64,000 nucleotides of DNA, taken from a virus. Below the pieces are notes generated by a model, which saw only the letters and a list, made by a program, of their open reading frames with translations, was not told the DNA's origin and ran no database searches. Positions 2,541 to 62,674 of the stretch are shown here, one piece after another (within the stretch, counting starts at the first letter, position 1; every line of letters starts with the position of its first letter). The stretch covers positions 96,001 through 160,000 of IMG/VR virus record IMGVR_UViG_3300045988_146774. One strand, written 5' to 3'. A program made the translations under genes and the position numbers.

Positions 2541-3698
2541 ATGAATATTATTGAGACAAATTTAAAATTTGGGGCAATGACTAACAGAAAATCAACGAGT
2601 AGAATCATTCTGCATCATGCAGAAGCAAGTCATTGTACAGCAGCAGATATTCATCGTTGGCATTTAAATAATGGATGGGCTGGAGCTGGCTATCATTTTC
2701 TTGTAAGGAAAGATGGATCAATTTATAGATTGCGTCCAGAAAATAAAGTTGGCTCTCATGCGAAAGGTGCTAACTCAAATAGTATTGGAATCTGTTTTGA
2801 GGGAGCATACATGACAGAAACCATGCCACGGGCACAGATCAATGCCGGAAAGGAATTAGTGGCTTACTTAAAAAGTAAATATGGAATTTCGAAAGTACAG
2901 AGACATAGTGATGTTTATCCTACAAGTTGCCCAGGAACTAATTTCCCATTTGATGAAATTGCAGGTGCTTCCGGTAAAGTAAATGCGAACGTAATAAAGA
3001 ATAATTCTAATAATAACTCTTCTACTCTTTTAAAGGTTGGAAGTCGTGGAGCTTCTGTACAGGATGTTCAGAAAAAGTTAGTTGCTTTAGGATATAATGT
3101 TGGATCAACTGGAGCCGATGGTATTTTTGGTAATGCCACAAAAAATGCTGTTATTAAGTTCCAAGGCTCTGTTAGAATTTCAAAAGATGGCATCGTTGGT
3201 TCACAAACTCTTGCGAAATTAAATGAAGCATATAATAACAGAAATAAAGGACAGTCTGTTACTTCTACTACTTCTTATACAGGCAAAGATTATGTAAGAA
3301 AAGCTCAGGTACATATGAACAATTTTGCCGGTGCTGGTTTAGCAACTGACGGATTATGGGGAGCAAATAGTAGAAAAGGTCTTGTTAAATGTTTACAGAG
3401 AGCATTGAATAAAGATTATAAATTAAAATTAGGCGAAGATGGAATTAGAGGCAATGCCACTAATAACGCTCTTGGAAACCATTATGTAAAACGTGCTGAG
3501 ACTCAGTATCTTGTAACATTTGTTGAGATTGGATTAATGGCACTTGGATATTACAATAGTTCTGTAGAAGCTCCGGGAGTATTTGGTGGTGGATTAGAGA
3601 CTGCTGTTAGAAACTTCCAGTCAGCTCATGGATTAGTTTGCGATGGTATTGCTGGCAAAGGTACTATCTTAAAGATTCTTGCATGTCTTGGATGCTAA
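2541..3698 (+). CDS. endolysin: N-acetylmuramoyl-L-alanine amidase (Amidase_2/PGRP) with repeated PG_binding_1-like domains
   Basis: ILHHAE...GAGYHFLVRKDG...HSDVYPTSCPGTNFP are amidase_2 Zn-site motifs. About three repeats of the LGY..G.DGIFG..T..AV..FQ type. AAGGAG upstream of the ATG. Confidence 0.9.
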   Translation: MNIIETNLKFGAMTNRKSTSRIILHHAEASHCTAADIHRWHLNNGWAGAGYHFLVRKDGSIYRLRPENKVGSHAKGANSNSIGICFEGAYMTETMPRAQINAGKELVAYLKSKYGISKVQRHSDVYPTSCPGTNFPFDEIAGASGKVNANVIKNNSNNNSSTLLKVGSRGASVQDVQKKLVALGYNVGSTGADGIFGNATKNAVIKFQGSVRISKDGIVGSQTLAKLNEAYNNRNKGQSVTSTTSYTGKDYVRKAQVHMNNFAGAGLATDGLWGANSRKGLVKCLQRALNKDYKLKLGEDGIRGNATNNALGNHYVKRAETQYLVTFVEIGLMALGYYNSSVEAPGVFGGGLETAVRNFQSAHGLVCDGIAGKGTILKILACLGC

Positions 3699-3755: not shown

Positions 3756-5087
3756 CTATTCAAATATTTCTTTAAGTTTTAAATATGCTTCATACAATTC
3801 TTGATTTTCTTTTGTTACGTTTTTTGGAAGTTTTTCATCTTCTTTTTTATAATCTGCGAGGATAGCTTGAGAAGGAGTCGTCACAGAACTAAGTCCCTCT
3901 TCTGTTGCATGTGTGTAAATGTTTTCTACACTGATGGCATTATGACCCATCATTAATGCGGTATTAATTACATTTGCTCCTTTTGATGAATTGGCAATTG
4001 TATCCATAGTATGTCTAAGAGAATGAATGCTTAATCCTCTCATTCCATTTCTTGTCATATGGACATCTCTGTCTACGCCAAGTTTGTCACAAAGAGTTTT
4101 AAATCCAACTTCTATCGTTTCATGAGTTCTTCTTTTGCCAGTGCTAAATACAGGGTAAAGTAAGTTGTCTGGATTATTTTTACAATAGATTTTCGTTTGT
4201 TCCATCATATATTGAGCACATTCTTTGGCTAAAGAAGACATGATAATAAATCTTGGTTTAGTATTTTTAGGAACCTTTGTATATCTTTCCAATCCTTTTG
4301 TTTTATCATTATCTATATATCTTGTTGCTTGAGATTCTACAACATATATTTTATTATTCTCGAAATCTATGTTGTCATTTCTAAGAGATGAAAATTCTCC
4401 AGATCTCAATCCTGTTTCAAGAATGAACATAACGACTACTGCATATTGCCCCATGTTATTTTTGTATGCATAATAAAATTTTTCGATGTCCTCTGGAGTA
4501 AATACTTCTTTTCTGTTTTTAACTTCTTCGTCTAATTTTTTGTCATATTCATCAATAATTTCTTTTTTTACTCTTGCTTGTTCTGCATAATTTTCTTTCA
4601 GAAGACTTCTATTGACTAACCATTTACAGCATCTTCGTGTTAATTGAATTGGGAAGCTGCAAGTTTTTCTGCTTTTTAATCCTAAAATAGTATCATAATA
4701 ACTTTCAAATTCTACTGCACTCAACATATGAAGTTGATATTTTGCTATTGGGAAATTATCAAAATTTGCCCTCATTGTATTAACATAGGAATGATACGTA
4801 CTTCCAGCAACAGTTGGTTTTACTTCTGTTTCTATATACTCATCCATATACTCACCGAAAGTTTTCTTTTTATCTACTTTGATATCTTTTCCCCTCTCGT
4901 ATTCCTTTTCCCAAGCATCTCTAGCCATTATAGATAATCGTCTTGCTTCTTTTTCTGTCTTGGCTGTTCGTTTAAATCTTTTTGGGTTTGCTGTTTTTGG
5001 ATTAAGATACTTTGCTTGGGTGATACATTCCCAAGAACCATTTTTTAATTGTCTGGTACTTCCTTCTCTGTTATCATTTTTATCCAT
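3756..5087 (-). CDS. int: tyrosine site-specific recombinase (phage integrase)
   Basis: TGLRSGE (box I Arg), HSLRHT (H-x-x-R) and GHNAISVENIYTH (His...Tyr). The ORF is open to 5093, but GGAGGG abuts that ATG, so the ATG at 5087 is the better-spaced start. Confidence 0.9.
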   Translation of the reverse strand: MDKNDNREGSTRQLKNGSWECITQAKYLNPKTANPKRFKRTAKTEKEARRLSIMARDAWEKEYERGKDIKVDKKKTFGEYMDEYIETEVKPTVAGSTYHSYVNTMRANFDNFPIAKYQLHMLSAVEFESYYDTILGLKSRKTCSFPIQLTRRCCKWLVNRSLLKENYAEQARVKKEIIDEYDKKLDEEVKNRKEVFTPEDIEKFYYAYKNNMGQYAVVVMFILETGLRSGEFSSLRNDNIDFENNKIYVVESQATRYIDNDKTKGLERYTKVPKNTKPRFIIMSSLAKECAQYMMEQTKIYCKNNPDNLLYPVFSTGKRRTHETIEVGFKTLCDKLGVDRDVHMTRNGMRGLSIHSLRHTMDTIANSSKGANVINTALMMGHNAISVENIYTHATEEGLSSVTTPSQAILADYKKEDEKLPKNVTKENQELYEAYLKLKEIFE

Positions 5088-5099
5088 TTTCATCCCTCC

Positions 5100-7719: not shown

Positions 7720-8217
7720 TTAATCGCAATATAGAATTATTTTATTCTGTTTTAATGTTTCTGGGATATTGATGACTCTTTGATTTGACGAGCCACGAAA
7801 TTTTAGACTTGGATTTTTTAAAGTTTCATCATAACGTCCATCGACAAGAACATCTACGAAAAGTAAAACTTTAAATTGTTCACTACTTAATGATTCATAT
7901 TGATATCCAGAATATAACCAAATCTTTTTCTCTGGAAATTTATCTTTGATTTCTTTACAGAGTTTACAAATGTCTTGCATATTTTGTTTGGCTAAAGGTT
8001 CTCCACCTAACACACTAAATCGTGAAATATATGGTTTATTTAATAATTCTAATAACTTATTTTTCTTTTCTTCAGTCCATTCTTTACCACCATTAAAATC
8101 CCATGCCTCTGAATTAAAGCATCCTTTGCAATGGATTGGACATCCTTGTACAAAAATGGAGACTCCAATTGCTTCTCCATTCGAAATGTCCATTGATCTG
8201 ATTTGTGCATAATTCAT
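7720..8217 (-). CDS. nrdG: anaerobic ribonucleoside-triphosphate reductase activating protein (radical SAM)
   Basis: GCPIHCKGCFN cluster motif, about 165 aa, immediately downstream of nrdD. Confidence 0.9.
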   Translation of the reverse strand: MNYAQIRSMDISNGEAIGVSIFVQGCPIHCKGCFNSEAWDFNGGKEWTEEKKNKLLELLNKPYISRFSVLGGEPLAKQNMQDICKLCKEIKDKFPEKKIWLYSGYQYESLSSEQFKVLLFVDVLVDGRYDETLKNPSLKFRGSSNQRVINIPETLKQNKIILYCD

Positions 8218-8220
8218 TTT

Positions 8221-10479
8221 TTATTCCTCATATTCCGTATCATCTAAATGATATACTCTGTCATGAATATCCCCATATCTTCCTTGATTTCCGCCATTTT
8301 TTGCAGTGCCGATGTATCCACAAACTCTAAATGCAATATCCATTGTTGTGTTATCTGTATTGCCACAATTCGGGCACTTCCATTTAAGAAGACCGTCTTC
8401 ATCCTCAACCAATGGAATGTCTCCATCGAATCCGCATTTTTCACAATAACAATTTTTTGTATTAATCTCTGCATACATAATATTATTATAAATAAATTTA
8501 ATCACTTCTAAAATTGCCGGAATATTATGCGTCATACTTGGAATCTCTATATATGAAATTGCTCCGCCAGGACTTAACTTCTGGAATTTTGATTCGATTC
8601 TAAGTTTCTCAAAAGCAGTAATTGGTTCAAAGACTGGAATATGATAAGAATTTGTTATATAATTTCTATCCTTGCCATCAATTTTTACAAACACATCTTT
8701 TCCGAATCTATTCTTTAAACTTTTGGCAAATTTATAAGTTGTCGATTCTAATGGTGTCCCATAAATGCTATAATCAATGTTCTCTTCTTCTTTCCATTGA
8801 TTACACTTGTCATTTAGGGCTTGCATAATTTTTAAACCAAATTCTTCTCCTACGCCTTCATCAGAATGAGAATGACCTGTCATAAATTTTACACACTCAT
8901 ATAATCCTGCATATCCAAGTGAAATGGTAGAATATCCATCATAAAGAAGACGACTAATTTTTTCATGTTTTTTCAAACGTGCTAATGCACCATATTGCCA
9001 AAGAATTGGAGCTACATCCGAAGAAGTTCCAAGTAAGCGGTTGTGTCTAGATTTTAATGCTTTATGGCATAACTCAGCTCGTTCGTCAAAAATCTCCCAA
9101 AATTTATTAATATCACCGTCCGAAGATAAAGCAATGTCGGGTAAGGAAATTGTTACAACCCCCTGATTGAAACGTCCATAATATTTATGTTTTGTTTTAT
9201 CAAAGTTTTTTGCATTAGAAATATTGCCAACTTTATCAGAGAACCTATCTACTGTAAGAAAAGATCTGCATCCCATACAAGTGAATACATCGCCTTTTAA
9301 TTCAAGCATAACCTTTTCAGAAATATAATCTGGTACAAGACGTTTTGAAGTGCACTCCGCTGCAAGTTTTGTTAAATACCAATATTTAGATTCTTCTGTA
9401 ATATTATCTTCTTCTAAAACATAAATGAGTTTTGGGAAAGCAGGAGCAATATAAACTCCATCTTCATTTTTAACACCAATCATTCTTTGACGAAGCATTT
9501 CTTCAATTAATAACGCTAAATCTGCTTTTTCTTGTTCGTTTTTTGCCTCGTTTAAATACATGAAAATTGTAATAAATGGGGCTTGTCCATTGGTTGTCAT
9601 TAGTGTGACTAATTGATATTGAATAGTTTGAATACCTTTTTCGATTTCTGAAGTAAGTCGTTCTTTTGTAATCTTATCAATAACATTGTTTAATTCTTCA
9701 CCCTCTAAAAGTGTATCAGCAATATCGCATAATTCATGTTCGACTTCATCACGAATTTTTTTTCTTGAGACATCTACGAATGGTGCTAAATGAGCTAATG
9801 ATATGCTTTGCCCCCCATATTGACTACTTGCAACTTGTGCAATAATTTGAGTCGTAACAGTACAAGCTGTAGATAAACTGTGCGGTTTTTCAATTAATGT
9901 TTCAGAAATAACCGTTCCATTCTGAAGCATATCTTCTAGATTAATTAAATCACAGTTATGTTCTTTCTGCATAAAGTAATCCGCATCATGGAAATGAATA
10001 ATGCCTTCATCATGAGCCTGAACAATCTCTGGTGGAAGAAGATACCTTCTTACAGCATCCGTACTTACAATCCCAGCCATATAATCACGTACAGTTGTAT
10101 TTAAAATTGGATTTTTATTAGCATTTTCATGCATCAAATAATCGTTATTGCCATTGACAAGATCAATTACATCATCGTCTGTTGTATTATTGCTTTCTCT
10201 CTGAAACTCTCTGGTACTTCTATAACCTTCGTAAGCCCTTGCTGTAAGACGTTGCTTTTTTGTAATCAGCTTATCGAATACCATTAATTCAATATCTGAA
10301 ATATCAACGCTTTCTTTTCCTTTGCATTCTTCGTGAATTTCTTTTGCAATGCTTTCTGCAATTTTAGGTTTAATAATTCCAGAACCGTTTTCCATAGCCT
10401 TCATGATTGCATTATAAATTTTTGATTCATCGAATGCTTGCTCGCTACAATCTCTTTTAACTACTAAAAGTTCGCTCAA
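8221..10479 (-). CDS. nrdD: anaerobic ribonucleoside-triphosphate reductase (class III)
   Basis: N-terminal ATP-cone (VVKRDCSEQAFDESKI), C-terminal Zn ribbon (CEKCGF...CPNCG) and glycyl-radical motif RVCGYIG. Confidence 0.95.
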   Translation of the reverse strand: MSELLVVKRDCSEQAFDESKIYNAIMKAMENGSGIIKPKIAESIAKEIHEECKGKESVDISDIELMVFDKLITKKQRLTARAYEGYRSTREFQRESNNTTDDDVIDLVNGNNDYLMHENANKNPILNTTVRDYMAGIVSTDAVRRYLLPPEIVQAHDEGIIHFHDADYFMQKEHNCDLINLEDMLQNGTVISETLIEKPHSLSTACTVTTQIIAQVASSQYGGQSISLAHLAPFVDVSRKKIRDEVEHELCDIADTLLEGEELNNVIDKITKERLTSEIEKGIQTIQYQLVTLMTTNGQAPFITIFMYLNEAKNEQEKADLALLIEEMLRQRMIGVKNEDGVYIAPAFPKLIYVLEEDNITEESKYWYLTKLAAECTSKRLVPDYISEKVMLELKGDVFTCMGCRSFLTVDRFSDKVGNISNAKNFDKTKHKYYGRFNQGVVTISLPDIALSSDGDINKFWEIFDERAELCHKALKSRHNRLLGTSSDVAPILWQYGALARLKKHEKISRLLYDGYSTISLGYAGLYECVKFMTGHSHSDEGVGEEFGLKIMQALNDKCNQWKEEENIDYSIYGTPLESTTYKFAKSLKNRFGKDVFVKIDGKDRNYITNSYHIPVFEPITAFEKLRIESKFQKLSPGGAISYIEIPSMTHNIPAILEVIKFIYNNIMYAEINTKNCYCEKCGFDGDIPLVEDEDGLLKWKCPNCGNTDNTTMDIAFRVCGYIGTAKNGGNQGRYGDIHDRVYHLDDTEYEE

Positions 10480-37412: not shown

Positions 37413-37464
37413 TCCGCTTAGAGGTAATTTATGAAAACTATTTTGACAACATATAGTTGCCGAT

Positions 37465-37538
37465 ACGGTTATGCAAGAATCGAACTCGCTACATATCATA
37501 TTTTCACAATGACTGCTCTACCAATGAGCTAATAACCG
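37465..37538 (-). tRNA. tRNA-Phe(GAA)-like with an enlarged anticodon arm
   Basis: Acceptor CGGTTAT/ATAACCG, D arm GCTC-ATTGGTA-GAGC, T arm GCGAG-TTCGATT-CTTGC. The anticodon arm GTCAT-TGTGAAAAT-ATGAT has a 9-nt loop, or a 7-nt GTGAAAA loop closed by a U.U pair. Confidence 0.6.
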
Positions 37539-37657
37539 TACTCTCTGTTCCAAATAATGTGCACTATTGTCTAAAAATATAAAACACCGGAGAATCATAA
37601 TTTAACGACATTTCATATAGCAATCATGGTTTCTCACGCCACTTTTGCTCAGAGAAA

Positions 37658-37682
37658 AGATGGATGGTGGATTCGAACCACC
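37658..37682 (-). pseudogene. orphan tRNA 3' half (T arm plus acceptor strand)
   Basis: GGTGG-TTCGAAT-CCACC followed by ATCCATC. The only complementary 5' acceptor strand (GGTGGGT, two G.U) is 115 nt upstream on the - strand at 37798-37804. Confidence 0.4.
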
Positions 37683-37922
37683 TTTATAAGATTCATTACC
37701 TCAAATGTGCATATTCTCGATAACTTCACTTACAACCACAGCGTTCCTACTCGTACTAGAATCTGTCATGCACAACATAATTCGTTCTGTTGCTGCCACC
37801 CACCAAATTTATAAGCGTACCCATGATTTCGCACATGACTGATTACGCAATGTCTTAAGCGCACTTTTCGCTAACCTTTATTACAGAGTGCTTTGGAAAA
37901 GTGTAAGGTCAAGTATCTCTCA

Positions 37923-37996
37923 TGGAGCGTGCTCGACTTGAACGGGCGATCTTATGCTTATGAGGCACATGCATTAACCAACTATGCTAACGCTCC
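37923..37996 (-). tRNA. tRNA with CAT anticodon (elongator Met, or Ile2 if lysidine-modified)
   Basis: 74-nt cloverleaf: GGAGCGT/ACGCTCC, D arm GCAT-AGTTGGTTA-ATGC, anticodon arm TGTGC-CTCATAA-GCATA, T arm GCCCG-TTCAAGT-CGAGC (one C.A mismatch). G1-C72 is paired, so it is not an initiator. Confidence 0.85.
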
Positions 37997-38088
37997 AGAA
38001 ACTTACAACTTTAAGGTAAGTTGCCAACCTGTTTTTGTGATAAAACATTAAATTTAGAAAGGAGTGTCTGATTGATAATTCAGACAAA

Positions 38089-38161
38089 CTAGGCTGGTGG
38101 GTACCGCCCCCACTGATATATGGGTCAAAGCCATATGTGTTTACTTATTCACCACAGCCCA
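38089..38161 (-). tRNA. tRNA-Gln(TTG) with non-canonical D and T loops
   Basis: 73 nt. TGGGCTG/CAGCCTA (U1-A72, G73), anticodon arm TATGG-CTTTGAC-CCATA, T stem GTGGG/CCCAC. The D loop AATAAGTAAA lacks GG and the T loop is GGCGGTA. Confidence 0.6.
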
Positions 38162-56496: not shown

Positions 56497-57006
56497 TTAT
56501 TTATTCTCCAAAACTTCTTTGGGACAATAAATAATTTGTTTACCTGCTTTCTGTGCTTTGCGAATTGTAGACCATACACCGCCTGATTTAATTCCATCCC
56601 AAACTGCAAGTAAAACATCACAATGGTCTACCATGTATTGATCTCTTACATTGTCACATCCTTTATAGAGTTCATCAGCAAGCTCAATCCATTCGTCTGC
56701 AAGAAGTTTAATATCGTTATAATATTTGTGTGAAGAATTGTAATCTTTACAAGGAAGAACGCAGTGTATCCTTAAAGGAATAACATTACCTGCTTTTAAA
56801 AATATTGAAGTCATTCCAAACAGAATATCTGATCCTGTTGCCATTCCACAATATATATCTAATGAATCATCTTCTAACAGTGTTGTCTGTAACATATGTG
56901 TGAGATTGTTTACAATCCATCTTCTTATTTCTTCCCATCTATCGTCTAATTCATCTTCTGGAAGACTTAATCTCTGTGGTCTATGACCAGTCAATGCTAT
57001 TTTCAT
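56497..57006 (-). CDS. DUF1273 / YpsA-like SLOG-superfamily protein
   Basis: From the ATG at 57006 (GGAGAATAGAAAT upstream): MKIALTGHRPQRL..., GMATGSD, VWDG..GG. Confidence 0.6.
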   Translation of the reverse strand: MKIALTGHRPQRLSLPEDELDDRWEEIRRWIVNNLTHMLQTTLLEDDSLDIYCGMATGSDILFGMTSIFLKAGNVIPLRIHCVLPCKDYNSSHKYYNDIKLLADEWIELADELYKGCDNVRDQYMVDHCDVLLAVWDGIKSGGVWSTIRKAQKAGKQIIYCPKEVLENK

Positions 57007-57010
57007 ATTT

Positions 57011-57643
57011 CTATTCTCCAATCCTCCGATATTCCGTATATACATTGTTTTCACAGTAGTACAGATTGTAATCATTCTGTTCAATATACCACCACAATTT
57101 CTGATGTCCTGCTTTTAAATAATCCTTACAATAATCAGTCTCTTGGTAATGATTATCTACCATCTGCCGAAAGCTTAACTCATCAATCTCATCAGAATTA
57201 TGACAATATACCGCTATTCTATTTATTAAATCTTCTGTGAAATTTTCCGTGACTACGAATACGACTCTGATTATTTCACTCATTGAACGTCTAATAGATT
57301 TTAGTTGTTCGAAATCATGCAAATGGTATACTACTCTATCGAAATATGGATATGGAGCATCTTTTACACCAACCATACTTGTATGTAATTCTATTTTTAC
57401 TTTTTTCAAAGTAATATCAAAGAATTTTTTATACCAATCATAATGTTTTTCCAATTCCCATAATGGATCTCCGCCTCCTGATATTGAAACCCAGTTACAA
57501 TTATTCCTACGAATTTCTTTTCCTAGACCATCCAGCCCTTCTATTGTACTTTTCAGAATCTGCAAATTATTATTCTTTACAATACAATATGGACAGGTAT
57601 AATGGCATCCGAAGTTCGTTATTACACTAATATATTTGTCCAT
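57011..57643 (-). CDS. small radical SAM enzyme
   Basis: CHYTCPYC (CxxxCxxC) near the N-terminus and SISGGGDPL. Confidence 0.7.
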   Translation of the reverse strand: MDKYISVITNFGCHYTCPYCIVKNNNLQILKSTIEGLDGLGKEIRRNNCNWVSISGGGDPLWELEKHYDWYKKFFDITLKKVKIELHTSMVGVKDAPYPYFDRVVYHLHDFEQLKSIRRSMSEIIRVVFVVTENFTEDLINRIAVYCHNSDEIDELSFRQMVDNHYQETDYCKDYLKAGHQKLWWYIEQNDYNLYYCENNVYTEYRRIGE

Positions 57644-59949: not shown

Positions 59950-60849
59950 TTATTCACCAACCTCCGATACAATTTTCTTAAACATATCATCCACGGAATC
60001 AAGTAAATCATATCTCTTATCAAATGGAGCCGTAGAACTTCTAGCGAATTTACGTTCAACCATATCTATATAATATGTAGAACTTCCGTCGTCTCCTTGA
60101 TAAAATTCATTCCATTCTGAATCAGACAACAATCTCTTCACGTCGAGTTGCTCAATAGCAAGATTATCAAAACTAACAACTTTGAATTTATTCAAAATAT
60201 CCTGTAGATTTTCATATAACCATTGCTGATTTTCTTCTATTTCTTTTCTGTCAGAATCAAAATACTCATTACCTCGTCTCAAATGCTTATAGCCCAAAAT
60301 GAGCATCTTTAAATTATTATTCTCCATAGCTTGTACATCAGATGGTTTCAGAACTCCATTAATTACATGAATTACAATATTGGGATATTTTTTGACCTTT
60401 TTGATAAACTCTTGCGTTGGATTTACAAGAGATACACCTAGTCCATAAATAAGCTTTTCATTAATCATCTTATCTACCAAATCAATATTCTGTTCAAAAT
60501 GCACCTGGTTAAGAGTAATATTTGTGATAACTTTTAAATCTCTGAGCTTTTCTAAGAATGGGATTAAATCAGGATGCTCAAGAACGTTACCTCCTCCGAT
60601 TGCCACTTCTTGATATGGATGAAGTGTCTCGATAAATTTCTCGTTTAAGATATTTCCATGTTTGCCATTTTGTGTAGAACCTTCATGGCAAAACGGACAT
60701 CTCATTGAACAAGAATTGGTAATCTTAATATCCATATTTCTTGCAAAATCAAATTTAAATTCATCATCCTCTGTTTCACAAATGCGAGTACCGTCTGAAA
60801 ATATTTTGTTAATCGTGTTTCCATTCTTGTACATGCCTAATAATTCCAT
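59950..60849 (-). CDS. radical SAM enzyme (299 aa)
   Basis: CSMRCPFC (CxxxCxxC) and IGGGNVLEHPDL. Confidence 0.75.
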   Translation of the reverse strand: MELLGMYKNGNTINKIFSDGTRICETEDDEFKFDFARNMDIKITNSCSMRCPFCHEGSTQNGKHGNILNEKFIETLHPYQEVAIGGGNVLEHPDLIPFLEKLRDLKVITNITLNQVHFEQNIDLVDKMINEKLIYGLGVSLVNPTQEFIKKVKKYPNIVIHVINGVLKPSDVQAMENNNLKMLILGYKHLRRGNEYFDSDRKEIEENQQWLYENLQDILNKFKVVSFDNLAIEQLDVKRLLSDSEWNEFYQGDDGSSTYYIDMVERKFARSSTAPFDKRYDLLDSVDDMFKKIVSEVGE

Positions 60850-60875
60850 TCTAAAAATCCTCCATATTTTAAAAT

Positions 60876-61247
60876 TTAATCATGACCATAATATCCAAAA
60901 GCTACAATTCCTTCACCTTTTGGTGTAGTATAACTTTGTTCAAATGTTTCATACCAATTATCGTTGAAAAATTCTTCTGATGTTTTTATTCTTTCTTCTT
61001 CAAAAATACCATCTACTACTTCTTCGTCATTCCAATCGACATAAGGATACATAAGAGATCCATTCCATGACTTCTTTTCTTGCAGTTCTTTTATTACTTC
61101 TTCTCTTGAAACAAATTTATCCTTGTCTTCCCAATAAAGCAGCTCTCCATTTTCCCATTTTTCATATTCATCAGAACTACACATTGTTAAACTATGTACC
61201 GAACTACTATTCGTTTCAAATACTCCACGTCTAATTTGTTTTTTCAT
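60876..61247 (-). CDS. ETNSSSxH-motif paralogue 3 (123 aa)
   Basis: N-terminus MKKQIRRGVFETNSSSVHSL is shared with the two upstream genes. Confidence 0.6.
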   Translation of the reverse strand: MKKQIRRGVFETNSSSVHSLTMCSSDEYEKWENGELLYWEDKDKFVSREEVIKELQEKKSWNGSLMYPYVDWNDEEVVDGIFEEERIKTSEEFFNDNWYETFEQSYTTPKGEGIVAFGYYGHD

Positions 61248-61250
61248 ATG

Positions 61251-61829
61251 TTAATTTCCTTTCTCATAAATTTCGTATTTGTCAAATTCAGGTTTTAAAT
61301 CACCATATAATGTATAAGTTCCCCAATCTGTTACTTCTTTGCCCTCTGCGATAAACATTTTATCTCTATATGAATCACCATTATCATTTCCTGTAATAAT
61401 AATCGAATTGCCAAAAAGATATCTAAACAACTTGTCTGAATCAGACAATAAATCATCTAACCAAGATTTTAATTCTCCTGCATGATCGATATAATCATAA
61501 CCAATGTCATAATAATAATGTTTTTCCTTACCATATTCATATGATTTAACATTTAATTCTGGGATTGTATATGTGATTTCATACTCATCTAGAATATCTT
61601 TTAATCGAGTAAGTTTTTCATCAGCATATTCTTTGTCCATCGAAAGAATTGCTGTAATCAAATATGAAGCTTTATTATCAAGATCTCCATATTCTTCACA
61701 TTCCCATCCATATTCTCCTGTATGAAAATCAATATGGTCTTTTAGTTCGTACCCATCTTTTGCAATACAAATTGCATGAGTACTGGACGAATTGGTTTCA
61801 TAAACGCTTCTGCGGATTTGTCTTCTCAT
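61251..61829 (-). CDS. ETNSSSxH-motif paralogue 2 (192 aa)
   Basis: MRRQIRRSVYETNSSSTHAI. Also shares G(W/R)...DK..YL with paralogue 1. Confidence 0.6.
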   Translation of the reverse strand: MRRQIRRSVYETNSSSTHAICIAKDGYELKDHIDFHTGEYGWECEEYGDLDNKASYLITAILSMDKEYADEKLTRLKDILDEYEITYTIPELNVKSYEYGKEKHYYYDIGYDYIDHAGELKSWLDDLLSDSDKLFRYLFGNSIIITGNDNGDSYRDKMFIAEGKEVTDWGTYTLYGDLKPEFDKYEIYEKGN

Positions 61830-61845
61830 ATTTATATTTCCTTTC

Positions 61846-62559
61846 TTAATCTACTGGATATTCATAATCGATTGCATCCATATCAATTAATCCTGTGTTT
61901 TTAATATCGTCCCAATAACAATATTCATCCCCATCTTGAATAACTACATATTTTCTATTCGTCAGATATTCTTCCAACGATACATTTTCTTCTTCAAGAA
62001 AACCACTAAGCATGTCTTCATCTACGCATCCTGTATATGGTTTATCAAAATGGAAATATCCATTATCTCCTTCCCAATATTCAATTGTATCAATTCCCCA
62101 ATCTCTTTCTTTTTGTTCAAGCCACTCATTAAGCTCGTCTTCTGTCTTACCATATTCCTGAGCGTATTCACTATCTTTATTTGCCGGATGATCTTTATCT
62201 GCAAACGAATCGGAAATCATAGGAATAACAATCCTTTTAAGACCTGGAACATATTTCAATGCAAGTGATTCAAGTTCTTTATATTTCTCATCATTGTATT
62301 CTCTAACTAACGAGGCACATGCATACAGCCATTTATCATGAAAATTGCCTAATGCTCTAAATGGACTTCTACCAAAATTCATATCATGATCCCAAATATG
62401 CCACTCACAGTCTTTTTCTCCGGTATTTCTGTCATCCCACAAATAGAAATCTTTTAATATCTCTTCCGATGTGTAATGTTCGTCCTTTTTCATAACACAA
62501 AGAGAATGCTGACTGGAAGAATTTGTTTCAAAAACATTTGTTCTAATTTGTCTTTTCAT
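61846..62559 (-). CDS. ETNSSSxH-motif paralogue 1 (237 aa)
   Basis: From the ATG at 62559: MKRQIRTNVFETNSSSQHSL. The track's ATG at 62589 lies within the predicted promoter. Confidence 0.6.
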   Translation of the reverse strand: MKRQIRTNVFETNSSSQHSLCVMKKDEHYTSEEILKDFYLWDDRNTGEKDCEWHIWDHDMNFGRSPFRALGNFHDKWLYACASLVREYNDEKYKELESLALKYVPGLKRIVIPMISDSFADKDHPANKDSEYAQEYGKTEDELNEWLEQKERDWGIDTIEYWEGDNGYFHFDKPYTGCVDEDMLSGFLEEENVSLEEYLTNRKYVVIQDGDEYCYWDDIKNTGLIDMDAIDYEYPVD

Positions 62560-62625: not shown

Positions 62626-62636
62626 AGTATTCATAA

Positions 62637-62662
62637 ACAGATGAAATTTCGATTTCATCTGT
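62637..62662 (-). terminator. Rho-independent terminator after the Nudix gene
   Basis: 11-bp stem ACAGATGAAAT / ATTTCATCTGT with a 4-nt loop. TTTAT follows on the - strand and TTCTATTCTTT on the + strand. Confidence 0.65.
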
Positions 62663-62674
62663 TTCTATTCTTTG

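What the first reader, a model, noticed from the sequence alone, without database searches (positions are those of the whole stretch)
59950..62559. Radical SAM gene followed by three tandem paralogues sharing an invariant ETNSSSxH N-terminal motif
On the - strand, downstream of the palindromic promoter at about 62.6 kb, lie three consecutive genes of 237, 192 and 123 aa. They begin M(K/R)(K/R)QIR(T/R)xV(F/Y)ETNSSSxH(S/A). The two larger ones also share G(W/R)...(D/H)DK..YL. They are followed after 26 nt by a 299-aa radical SAM enzyme (CSMRCPFC, GGGNVLEHPDL). The conserved Glu, Asn, Ser-Ser-Ser and His look like an active site or metal site, but I cannot assign them to any family from memory. 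The block lies immediately downstream of the Nudix/NadE genes. A triplicated unknown enzyme family plus a radical SAM partner is a reasonable candidate for an undescribed nucleotide- or nucleic-acid-modifying or counter-defence system.
Basis: seen in the sequence. Interest (0 to 1): 0.7.

Follow-up and report, generated by a model that had tools for sequence, protein, structure and literature searches.

The report
Phage radical SAM enzyme with tagged partners
Three neighbouring phage genes share only an invariant 25-residue N-terminal tag and sit beside an orphan radical SAM enzyme, a tag-plus-enzyme pairing repeated in very different phages that is probably an undescribed protein-modification system.

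Summary
Three adjacent minus-strand genes of 237, 192 and 123 aa each start M[KR]xQIRxxV[FY]ETNSSSxH. A 299-aa radical SAM (rSAM) gene follows 26 nt downstream. The three proteins share only this N-terminal tag of about 25 residues; with the tag removed they show no significant similarity to each other.

The tag and this rSAM subfamily travel together. They are adjacent in 76 of 79 viral-contig loci and 65 of 76 genome or MAG loci, and in Lak megaphages, Microcystis phage Ma-LMM01 and Rhodothermus phage RM378. Each locus carries 1 to 9 tagged genes. No third gene is conserved, and no single body type is universal.

The tagged proteins match no Pfam, NCBIfam, PADLOC or PDB sequence family. A confident AlphaFold model of the 192-aa protein (pLDDT 94) has no Foldseek neighbour in the PDB. 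The rSAM has a single cluster motif and no SPASM domain. Its nearest structural neighbours, all weak, are peptide-modifying rSAMs.

Best reading, confidence about 0.4: the rSAM recognises the tag and probably modifies it post-translationally. The chemistry and the biological role are unknown. The Nudix/NadE neighbourhood is not conserved. I found no published description.

The parts
62635..62664 (.). Perfect hairpin with a 13-bp stem between the Nudix gene and the first tagged gene. It is probably a terminator or attenuator of the upstream unit.
61846..62559 (-). Tagged protein 1 (237 aa, pI 4.4). It carries the N-terminal tag MKRQIRTNVFETNSSSQHSLCV and a body of the '237 type'. Only a weak helix-level resemblance to the 192-aa protein remains.
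62485..62559 (-). Tag-coding segment of gene 1 (residues 1-25).
61251..61829 (-). Tagged protein 2 (192 aa, pI 4.6), the 'KGN type'. It has the tag plus a globular body. Invariant residues are Y56, D115, K190 and the C-terminal N192; H116 and TGNDN146-150 are at least 90% conserved. The AlphaFold model has pLDDT 94 and no neighbour in the PDB.
61755..61829 (-). Tag-coding segment of gene 2 (residues 1-25).
60876..61247 (-). Tagged protein 3 (123 aa, pI 4.5), the 'short type'. It has the tag, then DEYxKWxNGEL, a variable acidic linker and a C-terminal YTTPxGExVVAFGYYGHD.
61173..61247 (-). Tag-coding segment of gene 3 (residues 1-25).
59950..60849 (-). Orphan radical SAM enzyme (299 aa). It has one CX3CX2C motif and a GGGN SAM-binding motif, with only three conserved Cys. 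A three-stranded N-terminal beta-meander precedes the core. Further conserved motifs are SFDNLA and GDDG.
60688..60711 (-). Codons for the cluster-binding motif C47-S-M-R-C51-P-F-C54.

Best explanation
This is a self-contained two-family phage module. It has one single-cluster radical SAM enzyme and a variable set of acidic proteins, three here and 1 to 9 elsewhere. What these proteins share is a portable N-terminal tag of about 25 residues: [IV]-R-x-x-[VT]-F-E-T-N-S-S-S-x-H-[SA]-[IL], followed by one beta-strand.

The tag is the element that links these proteins to the enzyme. Most likely the rSAM binds the flexible N-terminal tail and uses the 5'-deoxyadenosyl radical to modify a residue in the invariant N-S-S(-S)-x-H core. 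In this way one enzyme would mature several different proteins.

Shown: the anatomy, the tag-rSAM linkage, the autonomy of the tag, and the absence of any known family or fold. Inferred: physical recognition of the tag by the rSAM, the modification itself, its chemistry (for example Ser oxidation or a cross-link), and the role of the matured proteins in infection.
For: 1. Linkage.
- The rSAM is adjacent to tagged genes in 76 of 79 IMG/VR loci and 65 of 76 genome or MAG loci.
- In the phage collection the two families hit the same records: 15 Lak megaphage and 9 Microcystis phage records.
- Rhodothermus phage RM378 carries a divergent pair.

2. Only these two families are shared. Across 38 locus groups, defined by rSAM identity below 65%, each of the two families is present in 37. 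The next real gene family reaches 5 groups.

3. The tag, not a body, is the constant.
- After tag removal the bodies fall into 20 BLAST clusters.
- hhalign between the two main types aligns only columns 1-28 (E 1e-20).
- The three window proteins are unrelated once the tag is removed.
- 15 of 145 rSAM loci have no KGN-type protein at all.
- In 14 genome loci found through the tag alone, 13 have the rSAM next door.

4. Tag conservation is extreme and acts on the peptide. R at -5, and N, S, S, S are 100% conserved and H is 99% over 309 unique ORFs. The N-S-S part was required by the selection pattern. Synonymous sites vary.

5. The tag is the least confident part of a very confident model. pLDDT is 65 for residues 1-10 and 80 for residues 11-20, against 95-99 elsewhere. 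This is expected of a tail that docks on a partner.

6. The array pattern fits a maturase with many substrates: one enzyme gene beside 1 to 9 tagged genes, with a conserved leader-like part and divergent remainder.

7. The best rSAM structural neighbours are peptide or protein modifiers: SuiB, SkfB, EpeE and PqqE.

8. The rSAM is not the RNR activase. NrdD and NrdG lie elsewhere in the window.

9. The one clear locus with no rSAM within 7 kb (L109) has 3 of 5 tags degenerate.
Against: - No complex model or biochemical data exist. Binding and modification are inferred only.
- The rSAM lacks the RRE and the SPASM or twitch auxiliary clusters usual in peptide-modifying rSAMs and in anSME. Only three Cys are conserved, and there are no such Pfam or NCBIfam hits.
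- The structural neighbours are weak (E 6e-3 to 5e-2, TM about 0.4), on a mediocre model (pLDDT 71, C-terminal 50 residues unreliable).
- The KGN-type body has its own invariant or near-invariant polar residues (Y56, D115, H116, GNDN, K190, C-terminal N192). It is therefore more than a passive substrate and could use the tag in a composite site.
- The tag sits at a fixed distance from Met1, as beta1-loop motifs of enzymes do.
- The RM378 rSAM lacks the N-terminal beta-meander, so that element cannot be the universal tag receptor.
- The degenerate-tag statistic rests mainly on one locus.
Confidence: 0.4

Rival explanations
1. The tagged proteins are enzymes or ligand-binding proteins. The Ser/Thr-rich T-N-S-S-S loop would bind a phosphate or metal. 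It would work with D115/H116, GNDN and the C-terminal K-x-N on the small-molecule or nucleotide substrate or product of the rSAM. On this reading the module is a short biosynthetic or modification pathway.
For: The KGN-type has many invariant polar residues outside the tag and a compact, confidently predicted fold. It evolves about as slowly as the rSAM (64-83% against 67-75% identity). The tag sits at a fixed distance from the N-terminus, like beta1-loop motifs. In the window, nucleotide-metabolism genes lie nearby.
Against: The other body types lack D115/H116, GNDN and K-x-N, and share only the tag. Fifteen rSAM loci have no KGN-type protein. Short-type bodies are mostly variable acidic linkers. 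Up to nine 'enzymes' of one family in a single phage locus is hard to explain. The tag is the low-confidence part of the model. The Nudix/NadE context is not conserved. There is no fold match to any phosphate-binding fold.
Confidence: 0.2
2. The tag is a docking or assembly peptide that is not chemically modified. It would recruit different accessory subunits or adaptors to the rSAM, or assemble the tagged proteins into a hetero-oligomer. The rSAM would then act on some third substrate such as DNA, RNA or a host protein.
For: The co-occurrence and tag-autonomy evidence is the same as for the best explanation. The canonical loci carry one KGN-type plus one short-type protein (99 of 145 loci), which looks like a fixed subunit set. 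The tail has low pLDDT.
Against: Pure docking rarely needs an invariant E-T-N-S-S-S-x-H with 100% N, S, S. That degree of conservation is typical of reactive or catalytic residues. Paralogue number varies from 1 to 9.
Confidence: 0.15
3. The tag acts independently of the rSAM. It could be a self-processing site, for example N|S or S|S cleavage giving an N-terminal nucleophile or a pyruvoyl group. Or it could be a capsid-targeting or prohead-protease signal, as in T4 internal proteins (cleavage after V-F-E).
For: Ser-Ser and Asn-Ser bonds are classic self-cleavage sites, and h-x-E is the T4 prohead protease motif (my own knowledge, not tested here). The genes form tandem arrays of divergent proteins sharing an N-terminal peptide.
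Against: This does not explain the near-obligate adjacency to one rSAM subfamily in unrelated phages. No protease or capsid gene is linked. The invariant residues after the putative cleavage site would not be needed for targeting.
Confidence: 0.07
4. The rSAM is a glycyl-radical-type activase and the tagged proteins are small radical-bearing proteins. The candidate site is the Gly in the short type's C-terminal VAFGYYG.
For: JGI names some members 'organic radical activating enzyme'. There are weak NrdG and PflA NCBIfam hits. The short type ends in a conserved h-A-F-G-Y-x-G.
Against: The NCBIfam scores are far below cutoff (27 against 131; 12.8 against 232), and Fer4_12 is below threshold. The Gly motif is missing from the other body types and is not part of the shared tag. 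Loci without the short type exist. There is no R-V-x-G-[YF] signature.
Confidence: 0.05

Closest known systems
RiPP-type radical SAM maturases with arrays of precursor genes (SuiB/streptide, SkfB, EpeE, PqqE)
   Same: A single rSAM gene sits next to one to several small genes. These share a strongly conserved N-terminal part and differ elsewhere. These enzymes are also the best rSAM structural neighbours of the model.
   Different: There is no RRE/PqqD domain and no SPASM or twitch auxiliary cluster. The 'precursors' are proteins of 100-320 aa, and the one body modelled (KGN-type) is confidently folded. The conserved part itself contains the likely reactive residues. The module is found mainly on phage and phage-like contigs.
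Anaerobic sulfatase-maturing enzyme (AtsB/anSME) acting on Ser-type sulfatases
   Same: The concept matches: an rSAM acts on a Ser in a short invariant motif of a folded protein to create a functional group.
   Different: The motif is not S-x-P-x-R. The partner fold has no match to the alkaline-phosphatase superfamily. The rSAM lacks the two auxiliary clusters.
Glycyl radical enzyme activases (PflA, NrdG)
   Same: These are small single-cluster rSAMs that act on a partner protein. Some database names point to this family.
   Different: Scores fall far below the family thresholds. There is no glycyl-radical motif in the shared tag. The phage has a separate NrdD/NrdG pair.
PHROG families phrog_28997 (unknown function) and phrog_16999 ('Fe-S oxidoreductase')
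   Same: The 192-aa protein and the rSAM are members by sequence (E 2e-19 and 5e-38). Ma-LMM01 gp128 and RM378 p108 carry the 'Fe-S oxidoreductase' label.
   Different: These are clusters without a known function. The tag-rSAM pairing, the tag's autonomy and the other body types are not captured by them. The 237-aa protein has no PHROG hit, and the 123-aa protein matches phrog_28997 over residues 3-26 only.
T4 internal proteins with a capsid-targeting sequence
   Same: Both are tandem, rapidly diverging phage proteins that share only a short N-terminal peptide.
   Different: The T4 proteins have no rSAM partner. Here no link to a prohead protease or capsid genes was seen. The comparison rests on my own knowledge of T4.

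Membership tests
Radical SAM superfamily (the 299-aa protein) | CX3CX2C cluster motif near the N-terminus of the core | tested here: met
   C47-x3-C51-x2-C54 is invariant in 16 diverse homologues.
Radical SAM superfamily (the 299-aa protein) | Pfam PF04055 match above the gathering score | tested here: met
   32.3 bits against a cutoff of 29.5, E 1.3e-7.
Radical SAM superfamily (the 299-aa protein) | Partial TIM-barrel core fold resembling solved rSAM enzymes | tested here: inconclusive
   The model has pLDDT 71. Foldseek finds SuiB, SkfB, EpeE, SpeY and QueE with probability 0.85-1.0 but E 6e-3 to 3e-2 and TM about 0.4.
SPASM/twitch rSAM peptide maturases and anSME | C-terminal Cys-rich domain binding one or two auxiliary [4Fe-4S] clusters | tested here: not met
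   Only the three cluster Cys are conserved. The window protein has four Cys in all. There is no SPASM hit in Pfam or NCBIfam above cutoff.
RiPP maturases with an RRE | PqqD-like RiPP recognition element | tested here: not met
   There is no PqqD/RRE hit. The N-terminal extension is only about 35 residues, three beta-strands, and is absent in RM378.
Glycyl radical enzyme activases (NrdG/PflA) | Family model above the curated cutoff | tested here: not met
   NrdG2 scores 27 bits against 131, and PFLA 12.8 against 232. Fer4_12 scores 15.3 against 22. The true NrdG is at 7720-8217.
Viperin / QueE / MoaA | Family model above the curated cutoff | tested here: not met
   Viperin scores 14.5 against 180, QueE 13.1 against 300, and MoaA 26.6 against 231. 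The PADLOC pVip hit is only 19 bits.
Any Pfam, NCBIfam, PADLOC or PDB family (the three tagged proteins) | Significant sequence match | tested here: not met
   There are no hits for the window proteins, for the 124 KGN-type members of alignment A4, or for 10 divergent members. PDB profile searches of alignments A2 and A4 have best E values of 0.04 and 0.16.
Any solved protein fold (the 192-aa KGN-type) | Foldseek match to a PDB chain | tested here: not met
phrog_28997 (unknown function) | Profile match | tested here: met
   The 192-aa protein matches at E 1.9e-19. The 123-aa protein matches over the tag only, E 1e-3. The 237-aa protein has no hit.
Tag-rSAM module as defined here | N-terminal h-R-x-x-h-F-E-T-N-S-S-S-x-H within the first 20 or so residues, with an rSAM of the SFDNLA/GDDG subfamily within a few kb | tested here: met
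   The window meets it. So do 141 of 155 fetched loci.

The most novel reading that the evidence does not exclude
Large phages carry a previously unknown protein-tagging system. A portable 25-residue N-terminal tag directs otherwise unrelated acidic proteins to one minimal, single-cluster rSAM. That enzyme installs a new post-translational modification on the N-S-S-S-x-H core. The tagged proteins, including one with a fold not seen in the PDB, would be diversifying infection effectors such as counter-defence or host-takeover factors. This would explain arrays of up to nine copies.
Probability: 0.3. Interest if true: 0.85.

Novelty: new variant of a known kind. Interest (0 to 1): 0.72.

Why it matters
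Radical SAM enzymes that act on proteins are few, and each has revealed new chemistry, such as glycyl radicals, formylglycine and RiPP cross-links. This module is a compact, abundant and mostly phage-borne candidate for another such reaction. The profile search found 4119 clusters at 50% identity for the tagged proteins and about 7000 clusters at 90% identity for the enzyme.

It occurs in gut phages with close relatives in Blautia assemblies, in Lak megaphages, in the cultured Ma-LMM01-Microcystis system and in a thermophilic phage, so it can be tested directly. The tag gives a simple sequence rule for finding all putative substrates in a genome. One partner has a confidently predicted fold with no solved relative. 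The function, once known, would annotate thousands of 'hypothetical' phage genes.

Tried and rejected
- Near-identical DNA search of the block against GenBank phages: no match.
- Sequence-family searches of the tagged proteins (Pfam, NCBIfam, PADLOC, PDB sequence profiles): nothing.
- Structure searches with the 192-aa model (Foldseek against PDB and BFVD): no informative neighbour.
- SGNH-hydrolase, flavodoxin, HAD, Toprim and alkaline-phosphatase-like readings of the T-N-S-S-S, D-H and G-N-D-N motifs. I considered these from memory. I rejected them because motif order or predicted secondary structure does not fit and Foldseek found none of these common folds.
- RNR activase role for the rSAM: rejected, because NrdG and NrdD lie elsewhere in the window.
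- Search for rSAM domain fusions: the only long forms are an intein with LAGLIDADG insertion (L130) and upstream-extended ORFs.
- Search for a conserved third partner: none found. A NifS-like gene is present in only 24 of 161 loci.
- DNA-repeat explanation of the tag: rejected.
- Expression class in Ma-LMM01: the transcriptome paper does not mention gp128-130.
- Literature searches for the motif or the module: nothing found.
- The profile search of the rSAM alignment did not add diversity. As a result the rSAM model is only moderate.
Full report
**1. What is in the sequence**

On the minus strand, four tightly packed genes follow a hairpin with a 13-bp stem at 62635-62664.
- 61846-62559 encodes 237 aa. 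It starts at the ATG preceded by AAAGGA; an in-frame upstream ATG would give 247 aa.
- 61251-61829 encodes 192 aa.
- 60876-61247 encodes 123 aa.
- 59950-60849 encodes 299 aa and starts 26 nt after the previous gene.

The first three begin MKRQIRTNVFETNSSSQHS, MRRQIRRSVYETNSSSTHA and MKKQIRRGVFETNSSSVHS. In a six-frame scan of the whole window the motif occurs only at these three places.

Each gene has its own GAAAGGA ribosome-binding site. The three tag-coding stretches use different synonymous codons, so selection acts on the peptide and not on a DNA repeat.

The fourth gene is a radical SAM (rSAM) protein. It scores 32.3 bits on PF04055 against a cutoff of 29.5, and carries CSMRCPFC and GGGN. 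NUDIX and NAD-synthase genes lie upstream.

**2. The three genes share a tag, not a whole protein**

With the first 25 residues removed, the three window proteins have no significant pairwise similarity (E 0.06 and 0.9).

I collected 309 unique tagged ORFs from 161 related loci. With the tag removed, their bodies fall into 20 BLAST clusters. Two clusters dominate.
- The 'KGN type' includes the window's 192-aa protein: 155 sequences in 127 loci. The 237-aa type is weakly linked to this cluster.
- The 'short type' includes the window's 123-aa protein: 110 sequences in 104 loci. It has a variable acidic linker and a C-terminal YTTPxGExVVAFGxYGxD.

A profile-profile comparison of these two types aligns only columns 1-28 (E 1e-20).

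Over all 309 ORFs the tag reads [IV]-R-x-x-[VT]-F-E-T-N-S-S-S-x-H-[SA]-[IL]. R at -5, and N, S, S, S are 100% conserved, F 96%, T 97% and H 99%. The selection pattern required the N-S-S core, but an HMM search that did not require it found only eight real deviants among about 360 tags. Most of these were at the third Ser.

All three window proteins are acidic, with pI about 4.5.

**3. The tag and one rSAM subfamily travel together**

- In close metagenomic relatives the order is 191 aa, 237 aa, 97 aa, then the rSAM.
- In the GenBank phage collection the 192-aa protein and the rSAM hit the same records: 15 Lak megaphage and 9 Microcystis phage records.
- Lak-A2 has the rSAM followed by five tagged genes.
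- Ma-LMM01 has gp130 (tagged), gp129 (unrelated) and gp128 (rSAM).
- Rhodothermus phage RM378 has a divergent pair. p108 is the rSAM (66 bits to the family profile). p106 reads MKAFIRFGLSTNSSSSHS...GWE...GGNDN (34 bits to the KGN profile).
- In IMG/VR, 76 of 79 loci found through the tagged protein have the rSAM directly adjacent.
- In one-genome-per-species prokaryotic assemblies, mostly MAG contigs that look phage-like, 65 of 76 loci do. Many of the rest are truncated contigs.
- Copy number of tagged genes ranges from 1 to 9 (L158).

I clustered all ORFs of these loci. Across 38 locus groups (rSAM identity below 65%), the tagged family and the rSAM are each present in 37. Nothing else real exceeds 5 groups.

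No body type is universal. Of 145 loci with the rSAM, 99 have KGN plus short, 14 have KGN only, and 15 have only other bodies. In 14 loci found through the tag alone, 13 have the rSAM next door. The conserved relationship is therefore between the tag and the rSAM.

The Nudix/NadE neighbourhood is not conserved. It is absent even from a second contig that carries the identical rSAM, and from more distant relatives.

**4. What the parts resemble**

*Tagged proteins.* They have no hit in Pfam, NCBIfam or PADLOC, nor in profile searches of PDB sequences. Only phrog_28997, of unknown function, matches.

The family is large. There are 4119 clusters at 50% identity with E no greater than 1e-3, and 1106 with E no greater than 1e-10.

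In a 124-sequence alignment, the KGN type has these invariant residues: R6, E11, N13, S14-16, H18, Y56, D115, K190 and the C-terminal residue N192. H116 and T146-G-N-D-N150 are nearly invariant.

AlphaFold2 gives a very confident model, with pLDDT 94.4 and pTM 0.89. The tail is the weak part: residues 1-10 average 65 and residues 11-20 average 80, and the first strand begins at residue 16.

Foldseek finds no PDB neighbour (best E 0.28, TM no more than 0.21). In BFVD it finds only an uncharacterised homologue.

*The rSAM.* It has about 7000 relatives at 90% clustering. Only three Cys are conserved, so it has no auxiliary cluster. A conserved N-terminal beta-meander precedes the core, and further conserved motifs are SFDNLA and GDDG.

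It falls far below the thresholds for NrdG, PflA, MoaA, QueE and viperin. Its model is moderate (pLDDT 71). The best rSAM neighbours are SuiB, SkfB, EpeE, SpeY, PqqE and QueE, all weak.

The window has a genuine NrdD/NrdG pair at 7720-10479, so this rSAM is not the ribonucleotide reductase activase.

In one relative (L130) an intein with a LAGLIDADG endonuclease sits just before the GGGN motif of the rSAM.

**5. Most likely mechanism**

The simplest account of sections 2 to 4 is that the tag is the handle through which diverse proteins meet the rSAM. The invariant N-S-S(-S)-x-H core is then the site the enzyme acts on. This would be a protein-maturation system with one enzyme and several substrates.

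It resembles three known cases in logic: RiPP maturases with precursor arrays, anSME acting on Ser-type sulfatases, and glycyl-radical activases. It is a member of none of them, because the defining features were tested and not met (no RRE, no SPASM or twitch domain, sub-threshold family scores, no Gly motif in the tag).

I put this explanation at about 0.4. The steps that are shown are the anatomy, the linkage, the tag's autonomy and the absence of known relatives. The steps that are inferred are binding, modification, the chemistry and the biological role.

**6. Rivals**

- The tagged proteins are enzymes or ligand binders that use T-N-S-S-S as a phosphate or metal loop in a pathway with the rSAM (0.2). 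The KGN type's own invariant polar residues and its slow evolution favour this. The unrelated bodies and the loci without a KGN type count against it.
- The tag is a docking or assembly peptide that is not modified (0.15).
- The tag works independently of the rSAM, through self-cleavage or capsid targeting (0.07). This does not explain the linkage.
- The system is a glycyl-radical type using the short type's C-terminal Gly (0.05). That motif is not part of the shared tag.

One anecdote favours dependence of the tag on the rSAM. Locus L109 has five tagged genes, no rSAM within 7 kb on either side, and three degenerate tags (ETNSSTQH, ETNSSHEH, ETSSSSED). Overall, deviants number 3 of 334 in loci with the rSAM against 5 of 30 in loci without it (Fisher p 1.3e-4). 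The events are not independent, and some of the contigs are truncated.

**7. Novelty and limits**

Full-text searches for the motif, for phage rSAM systems and for Ma-LMM01 found no description. That library is incomplete, so this is not proof that none exists.

I file the module as a new variant of a known kind: an rSAM with protein partners. The more novel reading is a portable PTM tag on diversifying phage effectors, one of which has an unseen fold. I give that about 0.3.

Limits of this analysis:
- I could not inspect model coordinates.
- I could not run complex prediction.
- I could not search AlphaFold DB.
- Locus sampling is biased towards relatives of the 192-aa protein.
- Many 'genome' loci are MAG contigs of uncertain origin.

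**8. Context of the window**

The window looks like part of a large phage, with GC about 31% and almost all genes on one strand. The 100%-identical rSAM also occurs on a 174-kb contig.

It carries replication and nucleotide-metabolism genes: DNA polymerase, helicases, RecJ-like exonuclease, NAD-dependent ligase, NrdDG and dUTPase. It also has three tRNA genes, an integrase and an endolysin.

rSAM relatives at about 73% identity are recorded in Blautia assemblies.

Noticed in passing
window 57011-57643 (-) and 56497-57084 (-): A second small rSAM-like protein (210 aa, CHYTCPYC; phrog_17662 at E 2e-72, function unknown; Pfam Radical_SAM below threshold). It is directly followed by a SLOG/YpsA-like protein just under the Pfam cutoff (27.2 against 27.7 bits). 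This may be another orphan rSAM pair. A SLOG-like ORF also lies downstream of the module in relative L045.
   Followed up: partly
window 7720-10479 (-): An anaerobic ribonucleotide reductase NrdD (752 aa, phrog_487 at E 4e-190) with its activase NrdG (165 aa, Fer4_12 at E 2e-46). With these the window encodes three rSAM-type proteins.
   Followed up: yes
window 3756-5093 (-), 2541-3698 (+), 37464-38161 (-): An integrase (phrog_1), an endolysin/amidase, and three tRNA genes (Phe, Met, Gln). The integrase suggests that this roughly 170-kb phage may be temperate. rSAM relatives at 73% identity are recorded in Blautia wexlerae and Blautia massiliensis assemblies.
   Followed up: partly
L130 3629-5704: The rSAM of this relative is interrupted by an intein with a LAGLIDADG homing endonuclease, inserted immediately before the GGGN SAM-binding motif. 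In L134 a homing-endonuclease-like ORF is fused or adjacent upstream of the rSAM.
   Followed up: partly
L055-L085 (21 loci), L127, L136, L153: A NifS/IscS-like cysteine desulfurase gene lies within a few kb of the module in 24 of 161 loci, and directly after the tagged gene in L136. It may supply sulfur for the Fe-S cluster. It is not present in the window.
   Followed up: partly
L109 4773-7594: Five tandem tagged genes with no rSAM within about 7 kb on either side. Three of the tags are degenerate (ETNSSTQH, ETNSSHEH, ETSSSSED). This may be decay after loss of the rSAM, or the rSAM may lie elsewhere on the contig.
   Followed up: partly
L158 399-11713: The largest array seen: nine tagged genes, a family rSAM (346 aa) and a second, divergent rSAM (316 aa, family-profile E 2e-4), on a Prevotella MAG contig.
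   Followed up: no
L162 3998-5813 (Rhodothermus phage RM378 p108, p107, p106): A thermophilic, divergent version of the module. The rSAM lacks the N-terminal beta-meander. A 70-aa membrane-like ORF follows, and then a 256-aa protein whose tag has Ser in place of the 'invariant' Glu (LSTNSSSSHS).
   Followed up: partly
L010 8587-9315 compared with window 61846-62559: Mosaic evolution within the module. The 237-aa type is 83% identical between the window and L010, while the neighbouring 192-aa type (66%) and the rSAM (73%) are less similar. Gene order also differs between relatives: 192-237-short in L001 against 237-192-short in the window.
   Followed up: no
window 62635-62664: A perfect inverted repeat with 13-bp arms and a 4-nt loop lies just after the Nudix stop codon and 75 nt before the first tagged gene. 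It is terminator-like on the plus-strand scan but has only a weak T tail on the coding strand.
   Followed up: partly
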